Shown: positions 1 to 43,728 of the stretch, piece after piece
Numbering within the stretch: position 1 is the stretch's first letter
Layout: every line of letters begins with the position of its first letter
From: a virus
Lineage: Duplodnaviria > Heunggongvirae > Uroviricota > Caudoviricetes
Length of the DNA: 43,728 bases
Reading direction: 5' to 3' (one strand)
IMG/VR virus record: IMGVR_UViG_3300015181_000003
Span: 1 to 43,728 of that record
The notes under the pieces: generated by a model
What the model was told of the DNA's origin: nothing
What the model saw: the letters and a program-made list of their open reading frames with translations, nothing else
Database searches by the model: none
Program-made: the position numbers and the translations under genes

Positions 1-341
1 AATTTGTTAAACGCTTCCTTAGAGAAAGGCTCGTCGTCAAAGCTCCAGCCGTTTACGACTTCTGCCGCAAGTTGCCGGTTGAGGTCTTCCGCCAGTTCGT
101 TAACCGCCAGGTTATATTCAGTATAGTCACCAGATTCTTTGGCGGCTTTTTCCAGTTCTTCAAAACGCGCCAACCCGCGACGGTACGCAATAATGAAAGC
201 ACGCCCCGCTTTAACGGCGACATCCGCATCGGGACTTACAACGTTAAGCCACTCACCGGAGTCTTCGCCGTTTGGCAGCAGAATAGGCATCTTCTTGCCT
301 ACCAGTGCTTTCTCTTCGAAATAAAAATCAGAAAGTTTCAT
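1..341 (-). CDS. tail assembly chaperone (gpG-like), 5' portion; gene crosses the window junction
   Basis: Minus-strand ORF from ATG at 341..339 (AAGGA 7 nt upstream) runs off the window start. Because 1..141 repeats 43588..43728, it continues to a TAG at 43509..43511 (420 nt, 139 aa, in frame). Sits immediately upstream of the tape measure gene. Confidence 0.5.
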   Translation of the reverse strand, partial: MKLSDFYFEEKALVGKKMPILLPNGEDSGEWLNVVSPDADVAVKAGRAFIIAYRRGLARFEELEKAAKESGDYTEYNLAVNELAEDLNRQLAAEVVNGWSFDDEPFSKEAFNK

Positions 342-509: not shown

Positions 510-701
510 ATGTCCAGTTTACCAGTTTCCTTAATTCTGTTTGCACTGCTCGCTTATTTCGCGCCTTTCCTGGTCGCGTACTTCCGTAACCATAAAGCGA
601 AGTTAGCGATATTCATGGCTAATCTGTTTCTTGGTTGGATTCTGCTGCCGTGGGTCTTTATTTTAATCTGGGCGTGCAACTCGAATGTCAAAGAGAAGTG
701 A
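510..701 (+). CDS. small membrane protein, superinfection-immunity (Imm)-like
   Basis: 63 aa, two hydrophobic helices, motif NLFLGWILLPWVFILIWA resembling the Imm family signature (recalled, not searched). Strong SD GAAGGGGG before ATG 510. Confidence 0.55.
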   Translation: MSSLPVSLILFALLAYFAPFLVAYFRNHKAKLAIFMANLFLGWILLPWVFILIWACNSNVKEK

Positions 702-739
702 GCTAGTATAGGACAAATCCTAAACACGAGGAAGTAAGC

Positions 740-1870
740 ATGGCCCAGAAGAAAATAACCGACGAGCAGTTACAGGAAGAATTGAACGCCGGAACAAAGA
801 TTATCGACATATCCCGTAAATACGGCATCTCAGACCGCGTTATTCGTATCCGTAAAGCGAAGCTGGCGAAGAAAGGCGTAGGTCATGGTCGTGATGTTAG
901 TCACCTTGTGCCAGACGGCTACAAGATTAAAGGAACGTCATCACTGGTGGACGAGTTCGGCAACACTAAGCTGCAATGGGTTAAGACCGACACCGATGCG
1001 GAACGTCAGGTCGAGTTAATGAAGGCCATAATCGAGGGCATGAAGTCGGAGATTACCCCCGTTGCTCCTGTTAAAGCCGTTCGCGCCAAACGGGACGACA
1101 AGCTACTCAACCTTTACACTGTGTCTGATTTCCATCTCGGTATGCTGGCCTGGGCCGACGAGAGTGGCGACGACTGGGATATGAAGATTGCAGAAGACCT
1201 GTTCTCCCGTTGGTTCGATGCGGCATTCCAGAAAGCACCGGATGCGGGGACTGGGGTTATTAACCTGCTGGGCGACTTCGCGCACTTCGATAGTCTGGTT
1301 GCCGTTACACCTGCAAGCGGTCACGCCCTTGACGCTGACACCCGTTACCAGAAACTTGTCCGCTACATGATTCGCATGCTCCGCCGTGTTGTCGATATGG
1401 CGCTGGTTAAGCATAAAAATGTTCGCTTGCTTATCGTGCAAGGGAATCACGACGAAAGTGGCATGATTTGGTTGGCTGAGATGTTCAGTACGCTGTATGA
1501 CAATGAGCCGCGTGTGTTCGTCGATACGTCACCGGATGTTTACAAGATGGTGCAACACGGCAAAACGACGCTGTTCTTCCATCACGGGCATAAAGCACGA
1601 TTCGACGCTATTGAACCTGTTATGATTGCCAAGTTCCGTAAAGCGTTCGGCGAGAGTGTTTACAGCTACGCCCACGTAGGCCATCTGCACCACCAGAAGA
1701 TTGTAGAAAGCCGTAACATGATTGTTGAGCAACACCGCACCTTAGCGGCTAAAGACGCCTACGCCTCTCGCGGCGGATGGATGTCAGGCCGTAGTGCGAA
1801 TGTAATTACTTATAGCGCCGAATATGGCGAGGTAGCACGTTTAACTATTTCACCGGAGATGCTTGGATGA
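740..1870 (+). CDS. HTH-domain protein fused to calcineurin-like metallophosphoesterase (Mre11/SbcD-like or phosphodiesterase-like)
   Basis: 376 aa. N-terminal HTH-like segment (KIIDISRKYGISDRVIRIRKAKL). Metallophosphoesterase motifs in order: SDFHLG (DxH), GDFAHFD, GNHDE, HHGH, GHLHH. SD GAGGAAG before ATG 740. Confidence 0.7.
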   Translation: MAQKKITDEQLQEELNAGTKIIDISRKYGISDRVIRIRKAKLAKKGVGHGRDVSHLVPDGYKIKGTSSLVDEFGNTKLQWVKTDTDAERQVELMKAIIEGMKSEITPVAPVKAVRAKRDDKLLNLYTVSDFHLGMLAWADESGDDWDMKIAEDLFSRWFDAAFQKAPDAGTGVINLLGDFAHFDSLVAVTPASGHALDADTRYQKLVRYMIRMLRRVVDMALVKHKNVRLLIVQGNHDESGMIWLAEMFSTLYDNEPRVFVDTSPDVYKMVQHGKTTLFFHHGHKARFDAIEPVMIAKFRKAFGESVYSYAHVGHLHHQKIVESRNMIVEQHRTLAAKDAYASRGGWMSGRSANVITYSAEYGEVARLTISPEMLG

Positions 1871-2097
1871 CTTCAAAATACAACCGCACAATGACAAACA
1901 CTCACGGCAGCACTATGGCAGTAGACGTTTATGACGTGCTACGCGCTTTCGACATCCGCGACCCTGCGTTGCAACACGCATTGAAGAAGCTACTGTGCAT
2001 GGGCCTTCGCGGGCACAAAGACACCGGAACCGACTTAGCGGAAGCAATTGAAAGTCTGGAGAAGTTACGGGAGTACCGGAGTAATATTGATGAGTGA
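1867..2097 (+). CDS. hypothetical protein (76 aa), coupled to upstream gene
   Basis: ATG overlaps the stop of 740..1870 (ATGA); followed directly by a terminator hairpin. Confidence 0.45.
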   Translation: MTSKYNRTMTNTHGSTMAVDVYDVLRAFDIRDPALQHALKKLLCMGLRGHKDTGTDLAEAIESLEKLREYRSNIDE

Positions 2098-2100
2098 GAA

Positions 2101-2124
2101 AAAGGCCCCTTTCGGGGCCTTAGT
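2101..2124. terminator. rho-independent terminator hairpin (bidirectional)
   Basis: Stem AGGCCCC / GGGGCCT with loop TTTC, T-rich on both sides; lies between convergent genes ending at 2097 (+) and 2126 (-). Confidence 0.6.
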
Positions 2125-2125
2125 T

Positions 2126-2758
2126 TTATCGTTGCGACTTAATTACAGAAACGACTCTTGGATATATCCTCCCGTCTACGGAATCCATAAGCGGCTTAAG
2201 TTCTTCTGCTATTTCCAATTTCCGCAACGTTCTGGCCTTGATGGCTTCGTCCAAGTCAATAAAATCGCCTAAGTTTTCTCGCACCCCGGTTATGGGGTTA
2301 TTAACACGGCATCGTATCTTGCCGTTTGTTCTTCTATAAGTAAGGCCTATTGGTAGGTTTCCTCTGGCCGCTGCGCTGTCGGTCAGGAAGTTGTTTAAAA
2401 CTCTTGGGACGAAGATGCACGTCTCTGGCGAGTATTCTTTGGCGTCTGTAAGCAAATCCTTGTCTACATGCCAACCATCTACGTAATTATCTTTATACCA
2501 TTTAAAGTAGTTGGAGAAATACAGCCAGTCTTCGCATACTACCACACCCGCGTATGTTGGGTGCTTAGTGGCCCCGTGGTAGCACCTGAATATCATCGCA
2601 TACCAAATATCGTACACTGGGTGGTTAACAGACTTTTTGCCGTTGAAAATACTAGTGGTAAAATCAGCGTCGTTGATGCCGACGCCACAGATTGTTTTAC
2701 GGCATGATACCGCCCGTTTTGATGCAGGTATCTTTTCAAATTCTTCATACAGAAACAT
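2126..2758 (-). CDS. HNH-family homing endonuclease-like protein with C-terminal AP2 domain (free-standing)
   Basis: 210 aa. N-terminal motif YDIWYAMIFRC...YAGVVVCEDW...GWHVDKDLL...CIFVP typical of phage HNH endonucleases; C-terminal GLTYRRTNGKIRCRVNNPITGVRENLGDFIDLDEAIKA resembles an AP2 domain. Flanked by terminators on both sides. Confidence 0.55.
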   Translation of the reverse strand: MFLYEEFEKIPASKRAVSCRKTICGVGINDADFTTSIFNGKKSVNHPVYDIWYAMIFRCYHGATKHPTYAGVVVCEDWLYFSNYFKWYKDNYVDGWHVDKDLLTDAKEYSPETCIFVPRVLNNFLTDSAAARGNLPIGLTYRRTNGKIRCRVNNPITGVRENLGDFIDLDEAIKARTLRKLEIAEELKPLMDSVDGRIYPRVVSVIKSQR

Positions 2759-2865: not shown

Positions 2866-4032
2866 TTATGCGTAACTAATACGTTGAATTACGATAGACG
2901 ACTGATATTGGTTGCCCGTGGACTGCCCTTCTATACTTTGGGTAATTGATTCCGGGCCAGATATTTCTGGTGTAACCGCCGTAAGCTCGGCACGTTTCAG
3001 GCTGAAAGACATAGCCCCGTTTACCCCCGCCAGAATAGAGTTAATCTCCACCTGCTGCTCGTTGATAAACTTCTGAATCATAGCCATGTCGTACAGCTTG
3101 CCGGAGATGGAGAATGTGTTAGCTGCGCGGCCACGTTCCACGAACGCCACGCTACTGTTGCCGAGTTCGAACTGCGCGGAAGCACCGTTGTCGTTGGTGA
3201 TGGTCAGAGTATCGCAACGTAACGGCGTAGAACCGTCGAACACGGACACATCTACGGATGAGAACGGCTCGTCAGTGAATGTGACCTGAGAGAAGTCGGA
3301 ACCCGCTGGCGGGCCGGAAAGAATCTCCTGACTCAGACCGATGAACGGGAAGCTGCCAGTTACCATCGCGTTTACGGCCTGCTCGATGGTGAAACCGGAG
3401 ATTTCTACTCCTTTGGTCAACATGTACGCGTCGGGGTTCCCGCACTGTCCTTTGAACCATGTCAGGATGGAGAACGTCTTACATGCGTTACCGGTTTCCA
3501 ATTTATCGCCTGTTTTAGCGTCGGTGGTTACAGTCTCTGCTGTCAGCGTGTGCTGGATACCCGCACCCGTAACTACAAGAGCAGAAACCTCAGTCACGAT
3601 AAACGGTTTTGCGTTGTCGCCGGTTAAGTCGGTGAACGCAATCAGGTCGCCAACTTCTACACCGTCAGTAATGAAGCTACCGGCAGCGCGGGTGAATGTT
3701 TTACCTGCTGGAGCGACCGTAATTTCAGCACCCGTAATCTCTACCCCATCCTGCCACGTAGAAGTCATAGCACCCGCAAGGAAATCATCCTGGCTACGTG
3801 AGCTAAGTTCGATGGCGTACTCCCCGCTGACCTGTTTGTTACCGGTGCGGATGGATGTGGTTTCTCTGCTGCCGTCGAGTTCGTTGGAAGTCAGCGCATC
3901 ACGGGTTACCGCGGGAACACCGCCCGTATTGCGCAACGGCGACCATACCGGGTTACTTGGTGTTACGCCCGGGGTAACTTCCGCCACATAGAATTGCGCG
4001 GTATTCGCGCCCTTAAAAGGAGTTGTAGCCAT
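2866..4032 (-). CDS. major tail protein (putative)
   Basis: About 388 aa. Positioned after neck/tail-completion genes and before the chaperone and tape measure genes. Track start 4038 is GTG; the ATG at 4032 follows a GAGG SD. Confidence 0.5.
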   Translation of the reverse strand: MATTPFKGANTAQFYVAEVTPGVTPSNPVWSPLRNTGGVPAVTRDALTSNELDGSRETTSIRTGNKQVSGEYAIELSSRSQDDFLAGAMTSTWQDGVEITGAEITVAPAGKTFTRAAGSFITDGVEVGDLIAFTDLTGDNAKPFIVTEVSALVVTGAGIQHTLTAETVTTDAKTGDKLETGNACKTFSILTWFKGQCGNPDAYMLTKGVEISGFTIEQAVNAMVTGSFPFIGLSQEILSGPPAGSDFSQVTFTDEPFSSVDVSVFDGSTPLRCDTLTITNDNGASAQFELGNSSVAFVERGRAANTFSISGKLYDMAMIQKFINEQQVEINSILAGVNGAMSFSLKRAELTAVTPEISGPESITQSIEGQSTGNQYQSSIVIQRISYA

Positions 4033-4034
4033 AT

Positions 4035-4493
4035 TCACAGCCTCTTGGTGAATGCAATAAAGTTAATTGACAATGGTCTTTTGGCCCATCCGTTTTCTAC
4101 AATCAGCGGCCCCAGGCTAACCGATTGAACCTCGGCGCAGATGTCGTTACGTGAAAATGACTTACCTGCTTTAAACGCCGTGTTAAGTAAGTCTGCCATT
4201 TTATTGACTGGCGCGCTACCTTTCACCGATGCGTAGTTAATGTCTACCTGATAGATGCCAGAGCGTTGTTCCGTGAAGAACAAATCCGCCTGTTCCGTAT
4301 CAGCGAGTAGCATGTAACTCGCCAGATACGGCGTATCTGTTGACGTCGGCGCGTCGATGTTTTCAAGCACAACCTTGATGCCGTTGGCGGTTCCGAATGT
4401 TACCAGCGGCACGTCAAACGCTTTTGTTAAGTCCTCAAAGTAGCCCATCATAGACCCCACATTTAGCTTCTTCCGAGGTAAGACGGCGGTCAT
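4035..4493 (-). CDS. tail terminator/completion-like protein
   Basis: ORF immediately upstream of the major tail protein gene with overlapping stop/start; the real start may be the ATG pair near 4451. Confidence 0.4.
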   Translation of the reverse strand: MTAVLPRKKLNVGSMMGYFEDLTKAFDVPLVTFGTANGIKVVLENIDAPTSTDTPYLASYMLLADTEQADLFFTEQRSGIYQVDINYASVKGSAPVNKMADLLNTAFKAGKSFSRNDICAEVQSVSLGPLIVENGWAKRPLSINFIAFTKRL

Positions 4494-40871: not shown

Positions 40872-43151
40872 TTAGTACCCCGGCTGACCGCGAGTAGAGC
40901 GGCGAGCTTTAGAAATCGGTGAGTTGTTGTCCTGTAACTGCGACGCTACTGTTTCACTGATTATAATACGTAACCGCCCTTCGTCATCACGTTCTGTTAC
41001 AGCGGAATCAACGCGTCCGGTGGTGTTGTTGACGATTGTCACGTTATCGCCGCCGGACGGGCCGCCGTTTTGCCCCATAATCTCTTTCATCTGCTGCGCT
41101 GTGCGGACACGCGATGCGCCCGCCGGCATGATAACTTCTGGTTTACCGCGTTCCGCTATAGTTGACATCTGGCCCGCTGATAACTGACCACCCTGCTCGC
41201 GTGCCGAGCGGATTTTGGCGATATTAGCCAGCCCCGCAGCAACGGCGGTAGCCGCGGCAACCGGTGCCAGGAAGGGGCCGACAACAGGGATAGCAGCCGT
41301 TGACTTATACGCCTCGATAGCCGATGTGTATGTTGCGATAGTGGCCTGGGCAATAGCGAACGCCTTGTATGCGGAGGACGCCTCGCCAAATGCCGTTTTA
41401 GCATTAGCTGCCATGTCACCGAAAGAACTACCTAAAGCATCGGCGCGCTTCGCGGCATACTGCTCATTGATAGCGTTAAGCGCCGCCTGATACTGTTCCT
41501 CGTTAATCAGCCCCTGTTCGCGGTATTTATCTGCGACCGCCAGCTTCTGCTGTTCCTGGATGTCGAGAAGCTCAAGCTCAGCGGCGTTCTGACCCATAAT
41601 CTGAGCCATGAAGTCGTCGCCTTTCTGTTGCTTTTCCTGGGCTTCTTTCTGGCGTTTATCCAGTTCATCTTGTCGGTTTTGCCCGGCTTCGAGGACAATA
41701 GCCGTTTTTGCTTGCTCGTATTCTTTCAGAGACAACGCGCCCTGGCTGTAGAACTCTTTTGCTTTAGCCAGTTTCTGCTGTTCCTGCGCATCGATAGCTT
41801 TTAACTCGTCGTTATTCTGGCGGGCCAGAGTATCGAGATAATCTTGCGCCTGTTTACGCAATTGCTCCGCTTTCTTGGCGGCGGCTTTCGCGTCTTTGTC
41901 GTTGGTGTTTCCTGTTCCACCGGCCCCGCCAGTTCCCCCCTTTCCGTCAACAAGGCTGGCCAGGTCAATTTCTTGCTTCTTGCGCTCGTTGTACTGCTTG
42001 CGCTGTTCCTCAATTTCTTTCTTACGCTGCTTAGACCTGTTGGTAATGGCCTGGGATTCTGCTTCTGCACGTTTTATGCTGGCGTCGTATGCGGCGTCAG
42101 CCTCCGCGGTCAGGTTTTTAAATGTGAGCGCTGCCGTTTTGCTAGGGTCGAACACGTCGGCAAGGGTCTGTCCTAACGCTACGGCGTAATCGTCAATGCG
42201 CTGGAACCACGCAATAACCTCGTGGAATGTCTGCTGAATGTCGGGCAACCACTCTCTGATAGCGTCAGGGATAGCTCCCAGCGAGTCTGACATGTCCGCG
42301 GATTTGTCCTCGGTGTCGTATGCCAGGTCATTCAAGGCGTCAGAAATAAACTTGAACGACTCATTGAACAGCGTCGCCCAGTCCTGGAGTGTGGAGGCTA
42401 TCTCATTAGACGCGATGGCGTCGGTGAGTGCGGTGATAGCGTCTTCCGCTGTTGCTGCTTGTTCACCTACCGCGTCACCAAAACCAGACTGTGCTACGGC
42501 AAGAACAAGGCCGTCGAAGGAGTCGGCGAGGCTCGACAACTGACCATCTAAGGTCTTCGAACGCGTCTCCATCGCTCCGGCGAAATCAGTGTTGCCGATG
42601 TTTAGCAGGTATTTCTGAATCTCTTCGGAGTTCTTCTTAACCGTGGTCGTTACGCCACGGAACGTAAACGAAACTGTATCTGCCTGCTGTGACGATTTAA
42701 TGCCAAACTCTTTTAAGCGCTCAAATTCAAATGTACTGGCGTCCGCCACGGCCTCAATCATCTGATTAAGGTCTTTACCCATCGCCGCGGCGGTGTTGCC
42801 GTAGGAAATTAATGCTTCTTTGCTGGGGTTTAGGCCGAGAGCTACAAGTTTTGTGAAACCCTCTACCGCCTGATTGAGACCGTACGGGGTTTCTTTTGCG
42901 AACTGTTGCAGGACGCTGAAAGCCTTAGCCGCGTTCTCAGCACTCCCGGTCATTGTGATGAGGCCGGAGTTCAGCTTATCGAAATTGCGCTGAGAGTCCA
43001 CCAGCGCACTGAACACCTGCTTAGCGGTTTCCAGGCTGACAACGGCGGCAGCCGCAGCACCTGCGGCTTTAGTAAGCCCGTTCAGTTGTGATGTGACTTT
43101 ATCGACGCCGGTTGCGGATACTCGTACTATCAAGCTAGCGATATCAGCCAT
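40872..43151 (-). CDS. tape measure protein
   Basis: About 759 aa from ATG 43151 (track start 43166 is TTG); long Ala/Gln/Glu/Lys-rich coiled-coil; follows the chaperone genes. Confidence 0.8.
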   Translation of the reverse strand: MADIASLIVRVSATGVDKVTSQLNGLTKAAGAAAAAVVSLETAKQVFSALVDSQRNFDKLNSGLITMTGSAENAAKAFSVLQQFAKETPYGLNQAVEGFTKLVALGLNPSKEALISYGNTAAAMGKDLNQMIEAVADASTFEFERLKEFGIKSSQQADTVSFTFRGVTTTVKKNSEEIQKYLLNIGNTDFAGAMETRSKTLDGQLSSLADSFDGLVLAVAQSGFGDAVGEQAATAEDAITALTDAIASNEIASTLQDWATLFNESFKFISDALNDLAYDTEDKSADMSDSLGAIPDAIREWLPDIQQTFHEVIAWFQRIDDYAVALGQTLADVFDPSKTAALTFKNLTAEADAAYDASIKRAEAESQAITNRSKQRKKEIEEQRKQYNERKKQEIDLASLVDGKGGTGGAGGTGNTNDKDAKAAAKKAEQLRKQAQDYLDTLARQNNDELKAIDAQEQQKLAKAKEFYSQGALSLKEYEQAKTAIVLEAGQNRQDELDKRQKEAQEKQQKGDDFMAQIMGQNAAELELLDIQEQQKLAVADKYREQGLINEEQYQAALNAINEQYAAKRADALGSSFGDMAANAKTAFGEASSAYKAFAIAQATIATYTSAIEAYKSTAAIPVVGPFLAPVAAATAVAAGLANIAKIRSAREQGGQLSAGQMSTIAERGKPEVIMPAGASRVRTAQQMKEIMGQNGGPSGGDNVTIVNNTTGRVDSAVTERDDEGRLRIIISETVASQLQDNNSPISKARRSTRGQPGY

Positions 43152-43476
43152 GGTTTCTACCTTCAAAGATTGCTTCTAAGCCCATGATAATGTCTATCTC
43201 GAACAGGCTAAGCTGTTTTTGCGTAACATCGAGATAGGCTTTCAGGTCTTGCCACGTAACAGATTCTCTTGCGAACAATACTACAGCGTCCTCGCGCACG
43301 TGTCGCGTAAACTTAATGTCGCAATACGTCTCAAAGGTGGATATAAAAAGGGGCGGGCATTCTGGCCCACCCCGTCGCGCTGCACGTTTTTTCTTATCGA
43401 TTACACCCATCGCGATAAGCGCCTGTTCGTGACCGTCAGCTATAGAATCAAACTCTCTGATTTTATGCTTATCCAC
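43144..43476 (-). CDS. tail assembly chaperone T segment (probably expressed as a G-T fusion by -1 frameshift)
   Basis: No ATG start (track start is GTG). This frame stays open upstream to about 43533 and overlaps the last 22 nt of the gpG-like ORF in the -1 frame; its stop overlaps the tape measure start. Confidence 0.5.
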   Translation of the reverse strand: MDKHKIREFDSIADGHEQALIAMGVIDKKKRAARRGGPECPPLFISTFETYCDIKFTRHVREDAVVLFARESVTWQDLKAYLDVTQKQLSLFEIDIIMGLEAIFEGRNHG

Positions 43477-43508
43477 AAACTCGTAGGTGGCGAACCTGTA
43501 CAGCGCGT

Positions 43509-43728
43509 CTACTTTTCCTGTAATGCCTTGCGCTCAGCGTTATGGAACGCCGCCACCTGGGTTCCAAGCCCTTTGAACTGGTCTAGCAATTTGTTAAACG
43601 CTTCCTTAGAGAAAGGCTCGTCGTCAAAGCTCCAGCCGTTTACGACTTCTGCCGCAAGTTGCCGGTTGAGGTCTTCCGCCAGTTCGTTAACCGCCAGGTT
43701 ATATTCAGTATAGTCACCAGATTCTTTG
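43509..43728 (-). CDS. tail assembly chaperone (gpG-like), 3' portion
   Basis: Continuation of the ORF starting at 341 across the junction; 43588..43728 duplicates 1..141; stop TAG at 43509..43511. Confidence 0.5.
   Translation of the reverse strand, partial: KESGDYTEYNLAVNELAEDLNRQLAAEVVNGWSFDDEPFSKEAFNKLLDQFKGLGTQVAAFHNAERKALQEK

What the first reader, a model, noticed from the sequence alone, without database searches (positions are those of the whole stretch)
43476..43533. Candidate -1 programmed frameshift joining chaperone G and T
The T ORF has no ATG, is open in the -1 frame from about 43533, and overlaps the last 22 nt of the gpG-like gene. The overlap contains AGGAAAAG just before the G stop, a non-canonical but plausible slippery site. 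G-T frameshifting is conserved in long-tailed phages.
Basis: partly seen in the sequence, partly recalled or inferred. Interest (0 to 1): 0.4.

Follow-up and report, generated by a model that had tools for sequence, protein, structure and literature searches.

The report
Phage tail chaperone G-T frameshift site
This is the ordinary, already-annotated -1 ribosomal frameshift that lets a Kagunavirus (K1-type E. coli phage) make a long "G-T" tail assembly chaperone from two overlapping genes, here on the slippery A_AAG that is the last codon before the G stop.

Summary
A gpG-like gene (Pfam Phage_TAC_4) ends at TAG 43511..43509. The -1 frame is open from 43533 and encodes a Phage_TAC_18 "T" segment down to 43144, overlapping the tape-measure ATG. 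The 22-nt overlap holds G_GAA_AAG (43518..43512).

The window is a Kagunavirus (Guernseyvirinae) genome. In 27 non-redundant relatives (T as low as about 40% identical):
- G's last sense codon is always AAG preceded by A.
- A stop follows directly in 26 of 27.
- T-frame protein conservation starts at the very next codon (V-x-A-L-Y).
- No start codon is conserved; some relatives have none for 100-320 nt.

The upstream codon varies (GAA, GCA, TCA, plus canonical G_GGA_AAG and A_AAA_AAG), so the core signal is the A_AAG tetramer, the most shift-prone one in E. coli. I found no conserved downstream RNA structure and no upstream Shine-Dalgarno-like element.

My predicted fusions (…EK|V…) for four relatives are identical to their deposited joined CDSs, the earliest being K1ind2 ADA82419.1. 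The call is therefore already known by prediction. I found no experimental proof.

Minor new points: the stop is TAG-rich and never TGA, a GCGCTG block 2 nt after it is frozen at synonymous sites, and published annotations of this locus disagree.

The parts
43509..43728 (-). 3' part of the gpG-like tail assembly chaperone gene, including the stop TAG at 43511..43509. The stretch 43588..43728 is duplicated at 1..141.
   Evidence: Translation. Pfam Phage_TAC_4 scores 22.4 bits against a cut-off of 21.1 on the full 139-aa protein. PHROG 15027 positions 1-138, E 3.5e-72, scored on the K1ind2 G protein, a close relative of the window's G.
142..341 (-). 5' part of the same G gene, with its ATG at 341..339. 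It joins 43728 through the circular junction.
   Evidence: The window has an exact 141-nt terminal overlap. The reconstructed G is 139 aa (MKLSDFYFEEK...ALQEK).
43512..43518 (-). Shift site G_GAA_AAG in the G frame. The core A_AAG is 43515..43512, and AAG is the last sense codon of G.
   Evidence: Sequence. A_AAG is invariant in 27/27 non-redundant relatives, while the preceding codon varies. A_AAG is the most shift-prone tetramer in E. coli (PMC4066793; PMC5009743).
43509..43511 (-). G stop codon TAG, immediately 3' of the shift site. It overlaps the first T-frame codon GTA (43512..43510).
   Evidence: A stop directly follows AAG in 26/27 relatives: TAG 19, TAA 7, TGA 0. The background in this phage is TAG 6/57 and TGA 20/57.
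43501..43506 (-). GCGCTG block (T codons 3-4, Ala-Leu) with frozen synonymous sites. Its role is unknown.
   Evidence: Ala3 is GCG in 27/27 and Leu4 is CTG in 25/27, while synonymous sites vary freely from codon 5 onward. No conserved hairpin was found.
43144..43512 (-). T segment read in the -1 frame after the shift (122 aa, VDALYRF...FEGRNHG, stop TGA 43146..43144). The -1 frame is open from 43533.
   Evidence: Pfam Phage_TAC_18 E 1.1e-18, 67.5 bits. PHROG 15027 positions 139-259. tblastn alignments to relatives begin at residue 1.
40872..43151 (-). Tape measure protein gene. Its ATG at 43151..43149 overlaps the end of T by 8 nt.
   Evidence: ORF list. Relatives annotate it as tape measure protein.

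Best explanation
Most ribosomes translating gene G terminate at UAG 43511..43509 and release the 139-aa chaperone G. A minority slip back one nucleotide on A_AAG (43515..43512). The single E. coli tRNA-Lys (anticodon mnm5s2UUU) un-pairs from AAG and re-pairs with AAA. The next codon read is then GUA (43512..43510), and translation continues in the -1 frame to 43144. The result is a 261-aa G-T fusion (...ALQEK-VDALYRF...).

In this phage, the tRNA-Glu on GAA can also re-pair near-cognately on GGA (G_GAA_AAG), so a two-tRNA slip is possible. In relatives with GCA or TCA at that position, only the Lys tRNA can re-pair. The stop codon right after the site probably helps by leaving the A site empty for longer (a 'shifty stop'), and it caps G at the shift point.

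By analogy with lambda, G and the G part of G-T would bind the tape measure protein, and the T part would recruit the tail tube protein.

Shown here:
- the gene layout;
- conservation of the site;
- T-frame coding beginning at the site;
- absence of any conserved start codon.

Inferred:
- that slippage actually occurs, and how efficiently;
- whether the P-site or A-site tRNA slips;
- the role of the stop codon;
- the chaperone function.
For: - Layout and frames.
- The two ORFs belong to tail-assembly-chaperone families: Phage_TAC_4 and Phage_TAC_18, and the two halves of one PHROG profile.
- T ends overlapping the tape-measure ATG.
- In 86 related loci the G frame ends ...A_AAG followed by TAR, with one exception where the stop is one codon later. 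The -1 overlap shrinks to 13 nt.
- In 27 representatives below 90% nt identity, AAG is used in 27/27, GAA in 17/17 where Glu is present, and GTA in 26/27.
- T residues V1, A3 and L4 are invariant, and A8 and W10 nearly so, with synonymous variation from codon 5 on.
- The first T-frame start codon lies anywhere from +9 to +324 nt.
- Two relatives carry canonical heptamers at the same position: G_GGA_AAG in L026 and A_AAA_AAG in L062 and L065.
- The predicted fusions are identical to deposited joined CDS proteins.
- A_AAG shiftiness in E. coli, and its dependence on the 5' codon, are documented (PMC4066793; PMC5009743).
- More distant TAC_4-like phages keep a -1 G/T overlap with other slippery motifs (T_TTT_TTC; CGA_AAG).
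Against: - There is no experimental evidence for the fusion in this phage group in the searchable literature.
- The heptamer is not canonical.
- In reporter assays A_AAG alone, without a stimulator, was barely above background (about 0.15% against 0.11%; PMC4066793).
- No conserved downstream structure was found (single sequence z = -0.13; consensus fold -0.68 kcal/mol).
- No upstream SD-like element was found either.
- Efficiency may therefore be low, and the source of any stimulation is unproven.
- One published genome note on a relative with the identical junction states there is 'no canonical slippery sequence'.
Confidence: 0.88

Rival explanations
1. T is made on its own by independent initiation, or by termination-reinitiation after the G stop. 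Candidate starts are GTG 43476 (110 aa) or ATG at about 43410 (88 aa). Many gene callers annotate it this way.
For: GenBank records of relatives annotate stand-alone T ORFs of 119, 110 or 87-88 aa. In the Jerseyvirus group a TTG lies 9 nt after the site, with AGGA upstream, and is annotated as having a ribosome-binding site.
Against: In the window the +9 codon is CTG, and GTG 43476 has no SD. Start positions are not conserved (+9 to +324 nt), and some relatives have none before +102, +171 or +324. The 12 codons upstream of GTG 43476 are conserved as protein in the T frame, with synonymous variation, so they must be translated. T-frame stops lie as close as 13 nt upstream, with no ATG, GTG or TTG in between.
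Confidence: 0.07
2. RNA polymerase slippage on the A run adds a base to a fraction of transcripts, putting T in frame with G. The shift would be transcriptional rather than ribosomal.
For: The site contains a run of A (AAAA in the window, AAAAAA in L062 and L065). The protein product would be the same.
Against: The A run is only 3-4 nt in most relatives (CAAAG in the GCA and TCA variants). From general knowledge, not tested here, that is well below the runs of about 8-9 nt usually needed for productive transcriptional slippage. The conserved G after the A run and the adjacent stop codon fit ribosomal slippage on A_AAG, not polymerase stuttering.
Confidence: 0.02
3. The overlap is a historical leftover. 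T is no longer expressed, or the frame relation is accidental, and only G is functional.
For: There is no experimental evidence for G-T in this group, and no stimulatory RNA element was found.
Against: T is under clear purifying selection across relatives down to about 40% identity. It matches a curated chaperone family at E 1e-18. The arrangement is kept in every related locus whose junction could be located.
Confidence: 0.02

Closest known systems
Phage lambda G / G-T tail assembly chaperones (-1 frameshift at G_GGA_AAG; Levin, Hendrix & Casjens 1993; Xu, Hendrix & Duda 2004, 2013, as cited in PMC5009743)
   Same: - Two overlapping ORFs sit immediately upstream of the tape-measure gene.
- The second ORF is in the -1 frame, without its own start.
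- The shift is on ...A_AAG, with the G re-read as the first base of a Val codon (GTG in lambda, GTA here).
- I found no conserved stimulatory structure here. From memory, untested here, lambda's site does not need one either.
- T ends by overlapping the start of the tape-measure gene.
- One relative (L026) has lambda's exact heptamer.
   Different: - There is no detectable sequence similarity to lambda G or T, and the Pfam families differ (Phage_TAC_4 and Phage_TAC_18).
- The heptamer is G_GAA_AAG, so the P-site tRNA can re-pair only near-cognately.
- The site is the last sense codon of G, whereas lambda has five more sense codons before the stop.
- The tail tube gene is not adjacent. It lies about 2.5 kb upstream, beyond an opposite-strand gene cassette.
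Joined 'tail assembly chaperone frameshift product' CDSs of other Guernseyvirinae (K1ind2 ADA82419.1 / YP_009597354.1, K1ind3 ADA82468.1, Shemara YP_010582519.1, Shelanagig YP_010747304.1, fFiEco02 YP_010749005.1)
   Same: These are the same gene pair with the same junction. My predicted ...K|V... fusions are residue-for-residue identical to these deposited proteins. The window's T part is 100% identical to that of K1G and others.
   Different: There is no biological difference. Many sister records instead annotate T as a separate ORF with varying starts, and one paper (Shashou, PMC6776780) denies that a slippery sequence exists.
A_AAG tetranucleotide and NNA_AAG hexanucleotide -1 shift sites (IS1222 G_CGA_AAG; Bacillus subtilis cdd A_CGA_AAG; synthetic constructs in E. 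coli)
   Same: In relatives with GCA_AAG or TCA_AAG, only the tRNA-Lys can re-pair (AAG to AAA). This is the single-tRNA mechanism described for these sites (PMC5009743; PMC4066793).
   Different: In reporter constructs A_AAG alone was barely above background and reached a few per cent only with a downstream pseudoknot stimulator (PMC4066793). No such stimulator is conserved here. Instead, a stop codon immediately follows the motif.

Membership tests
G/G-T tail assembly chaperone frameshift (lambda paradigm) | Two ORFs lie immediately upstream of the tape measure gene. | tested here: met
   G stops at 43509, T ends at 43144, and the tape-measure ATG is at 43151.
G/G-T tail assembly chaperone frameshift (lambda paradigm) | The second ORF overlaps the 3' end of the first in the -1 frame and lacks a conserved start or ribosome-binding site. 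| tested here: met
   There is a 22-nt overlap in the -1 frame. The first T-frame start codon varies from +9 to +324 nt across 86 loci.
G/G-T tail assembly chaperone frameshift (lambda paradigm) | The overlap contains a canonical X_XXY_YYZ slippery heptamer. | tested here: not met
   The window has G_GAA_AAG, which is non-canonical. The Z_ZZN tetramer A_AAG is present and invariant. Canonical heptamers occur at the same position only in L026, L062 and L065.
G/G-T tail assembly chaperone frameshift (lambda paradigm) | The gene pair lies directly downstream of the major tail (tube) protein gene. | tested here: not met
   The tail tube gene (Phage_tube_2) is at 2866..4038 on the minus strand. The 210-aa minus-strand ORF 2126..2758 and plus-strand genes at 510..2097 lie between it and G. 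Relatives have the same layout.
G/G-T tail assembly chaperone frameshift (lambda paradigm) | A G-T fusion protein is made at a low, fixed ratio to G and is needed for tail assembly. | not testable with these tools
   This needs protein analysis or genetics. I found no published data for Guernseyvirinae.
Pfam Phage_TAC_4 (PF08748), G part | The score is above the curated gathering threshold. | tested here: met
   22.4 bits against a 21.1 cut-off on the full 139-aa G, a marginal pass. The K1ind2 G protein also matches PHROG 15027 and 313, both 'tail assembly chaperone'.
Pfam Phage_TAC_18 (PF23812), T part | The score is above the curated gathering threshold. | tested here: met
   67.5 bits against a 27 cut-off, E 1.1e-18, covering profile positions 2-78 of 79.
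A_AAG single-tRNA -1 shift sites in bacteria with one tRNA-Lys | A zero-frame A_AAG lets tRNA-Lys re-pair on AAA, in a host with a single tRNA-Lys(UUU). | tested here: met
   The motif is in the zero frame at 43515..43512. Relatives' hosts are E. coli, Salmonella and Serratia. E. coli has a single tRNA-Lys according to PMC5009743.
A_AAG single-tRNA -1 shift sites in bacteria with one tRNA-Lys | A flanking stimulator is present (downstream structure or upstream SD-like sequence). | tested here: not met
   No conserved structure and no SD enrichment. Only the adjacent stop codon and the GCGCTG block are conserved.

The most novel reading that the evidence does not exclude
The conserved cassette is A_AAG, then an RF1-read stop (TAG or TAA, never TGA, usually followed by A or C), then NN, then GCGCUG. 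It may be a distinct 'shifty-stop' type of tail-chaperone frameshift signal. In that reading, the G:G-T ratio is set by competition between slow termination and P-site tRNA-Lys slippage rather than by a heptamer plus RNA structure, and the GCGCUG context tunes that competition.
Probability: 0.25. Interest if true: 0.4.

Novelty: already known. Interest (0 to 1): 0.2.

Why it matters
G-T frameshifting is a textbook feature of long-tailed phages, and this instance is already in GenBank for sister phages, so the finding adds no new biology.

Its practical value is for annotation. Records and papers on Guernseyvirinae treat this locus inconsistently, either as a joined CDS or as separate ORFs with four different starts, and one paper states that no slippery sequence exists. 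The comparative data here show that every member examined shares the same A_AAG-plus-stop site. They should all carry a joined -1 CDS.

If the stop-codon bias and the GCGCUG block prove to be functional, this would be a simple natural model of stimulator-free, termination-coupled -1 frameshifting in E. coli.

Tried and rejected
- Downstream stimulatory RNA structure: the single-sequence fold of 43511..43400 gave z = -0.13. The RNAalifold consensus over 27 relatives gave only a 3-bp stem at -0.68 kcal/mol, and the per-sequence mean z was +0.49. Rejected.
- Upstream SD-like stimulator of the dnaX or IS911 type: mean anti-SD duplex energy was -1.68, against a background of -2.15 kcal/mol. Rejected.
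- A hairpin pairing upstream AGCCGC with downstream GCGCTG around the site: rejected on geometry. Both arms cannot be free while the ribosome sits on the site, and the upstream arm encodes a conserved Ser-Arg.
- Independent initiation of T, transcriptional slippage, and a decayed T: see the rival explanations.
- Sequence homology to lambda G and T: none.
- Solved-structure relatives by sequence: none.
- Anany et al. 2015 (PMID 25663216), cited in GenBank notes for a 'predicted secondary structure' at this locus, is not held in the library. I could not check that claim, and my own folds do not support a conserved structure.
- The large protein-database searches and structure prediction were not run, because they would not bear on the frameshift question.

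Full report
**What is in the sequence**

The genes at this end of the window run on the minus strand.
- One frame reads ...AFHNAERKALQEK and stops at TAG 43511..43509.
- The frame one base back (-1) has a TGA at 43536..43534 and is then open from 43533 to a TGA at 43146..43144.
- The two frames overlap by 22 nt before the G stop.
- The end of the -1 ORF overlaps the ATG (43151..43149) of a 764-aa tape measure gene.

The first start-type codon in the -1 frame is GTG 43476, with no Shine-Dalgarno (SD) sequence ahead of it. The first ATG lies 102 nt beyond the site.

**Identity of the genes**

- The upstream ORF matches Pfam Phage_TAC_4 (22.4 bits, cut-off 21.1, on the full protein).
- The -1 ORF matches Phage_TAC_18 (E 1.1e-18).
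- The G protein of the close relative K1ind2 and the window's T segment match positions 1-138 and 139-259 of a single PHROG profile, 'tail assembly chaperone'.
- The DNA is 94-97% identical to Kagunavirus phages (Guernseyvirinae: K1ind2, Ro145clw and others).
- The window's first and last 141 nt are identical, so it is a circular assembly of 43,587 unique bases cut inside G.
- G starts at 341 on the minus strand and is 139 aa. The predicted fusion is 261 aa.

**Comparative test**

I collected the same junction from 12 annotated phage records and 80 IMG/VR contigs. The junction could be located in 86 of them.
- In all 86, the G frame ends in A_AAG. A TAG or TAA follows directly, except in L056, where the stop is one codon later.
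- The -1 frame is open across the site. Its upstream stop comes as close as 13 nt, which leaves A_AAG as the only slip-prone sequence in the shared overlap.

I then reduced the set to 27 representatives with less than 90% nt identity across the junction. Their T proteins fall as low as about 40% identity to the window's T.
- G's last codon is AAG in 27/27, although AAG is only 42% of the other Lys codons in these genes.
- Where the preceding residue is Glu, its codon is GAA in 17/17.
- The first T codon is GTA in 26/27.
- The preceding codon itself is not conserved. The heptamers are G_GAA_AAG (17), C/G/A_GCA_AAG (8), G_TCA_AAG (1) and A_AAA_AAG (1). L026 in the full set has lambda's G_GGA_AAG.

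T-frame conservation starts at the very next codon. V1, A3 and L4 are invariant, and A8 and W10 nearly so. Third positions are the most variable (entropy 0.48, 0.69 and 1.03 for codon positions 1-3). tblastn alignments start at residue 1 even at 40% identity.

Start codons in the T frame are scattered from +9 to +324 nt. This pattern is what a recoding site predicts, and it is incompatible with independent initiation of T.

**Mechanism**

A_AAG is the most shift-prone tetramer in E. coli. The single tRNA-Lys pairs weakly with AAG and re-pairs cognately on AAA (PMC4066793; PMC5009743).
- In the window, the P-site tRNA-Glu could also re-pair on GGA with one G-U pair. The site is therefore a near-canonical heptamer, one base from lambda's.
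- The GCA and TCA variants in relatives show that P-site re-pairing is dispensable.
- I found no conserved downstream structure and no upstream SD-like element.

What is conserved besides A_AAG:
- The adjacent stop is TAG in 19, TAA in 7 and TGA in 0 of 26. The background in this phage's ORFs is 6, 31 and 20 of 57. TGA would still keep Val1 as GTG, so protein constraint on T does not explain its absence.
- The base after the stop is A or C in 25 of 26.
- A GCGCTG block 2 nt after the stop has frozen synonymous sites.

A stop codon next to a slippery run is the classical 'shifty stop' arrangement (Weiss et al. 1987, cited in PMC5009743). I infer, but cannot show, that slow termination at this stop gives the peptidyl-tRNA-Lys time to slip. 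Reporter data show A_AAG alone is barely above background, so efficiency here may be low. For comparison, lambda needs about 30 G to 1 G-T.

**Comparison with what is known**

The architecture is that of lambda G/G-T.
- There is no sequence similarity to lambda G or T.
- The site is at the last codon of G rather than five sense codons before the stop.
- The tail tube gene is 2.5 kb away, beyond an opposite-strand cassette.
- More distant TAC_4-like phages keep the -1 overlap but use other motifs: T_TTT_TTC in Vibrio phage vB_VhaS-tm, and candidate CGA_AAG sites in Serratia phage Opt-155.

The frameshift is already annotated.
- K1ind2 (GU196280 / NC_041898), Shemara, Shelanagig and fFiEco02 carry two-piece joined CDSs.
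- My predicted fusions for these four are identical to the deposited proteins.
- The Shelanagig paper says the phage 'contains the slippery sequence' (PMC6763656). The Shashou paper says there is 'no canonical slippery sequence' (PMC6776780). The Shashou junction is nevertheless the same caG_GAA_AAG_TAG.
- I found no experimental demonstration.

**Verdict**

It is an ordinary, already-annotated feature, so interest is low. The modest additions are:
- the true conserved signal is A_AAG plus an adjacent stop;
- the stop-codon bias and the GCGCTG block remain unexplained;
- the comparative data resolve an annotation disagreement in this subfamily.

Noticed in passing
window 1..141 and 43588..43728: The first and last 141 nt of the window are identical. 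The window is therefore a circular assembly with a k-mer-sized overlap and a unique length of 43,587 bp. The cut falls inside gene G, which only appears truncated.
   Followed up: yes
window 43498..43515 (minus strand); junctions of loci L005-L092: Synonymous sites are frozen around the shift site in 27 diverged relatives: Ala3 is GCG in 27/27 and Leu4 is CTG in 25/27, forming a GCGCTG block 2 nt after the stop. No overlapping ORF or conserved hairpin explains it.
   Followed up: partly
window 43509..43511; same position in 27 representative loci: The stop after A_AAG is TAG (19) or TAA (7) and never TGA, although TGA would keep T's Val1. In this phage's other ORFs, TAG is the rarest stop (6/57) and TGA is common (20/57). 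The next base is A or C in 25/26.
   Followed up: partly
window 510..2758: The G/G-T/tape-measure operon is separated from the tail tube gene (2866..4038, minus strand, Phage_tube_2). The intervening plus-strand cassette holds a superinfection-immunity protein (510..701), a metallophosphatase or exonuclease-like protein (740..1870) and a 76-aa ORF. A 210-aa minus-strand ORF (2126..2758) with no Pfam match also lies between them.
   Followed up: partly
L094 (phage Shashou) 4795..4811; L006 (Snoke); L002, L003, L005, L007, L009, L011: Public annotation of T in this subfamily is inconsistent. It appears as a joined CDS, or as a separate ORF starting at +9 TTG (119 aa), +36 GTG (110 aa) or +102 ATG (87-88 aa). 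One paper denies a slippery sequence for a junction identical to those annotated as frameshifted.
   Followed up: yes
L095 (Vibrio phage vB_VhaS-tm) 1345..1360; L096 (Serratia phage Opt-155) 1318..1435: Distant TAC_4-like chaperone genes annotated as two separate hypothetical proteins also have a -1 overlap with slippery motifs: T_TTT_TTC two codons before the stop, and CGA_AAG candidates. These are probably unannotated G-T frameshifts.
   Followed up: partly
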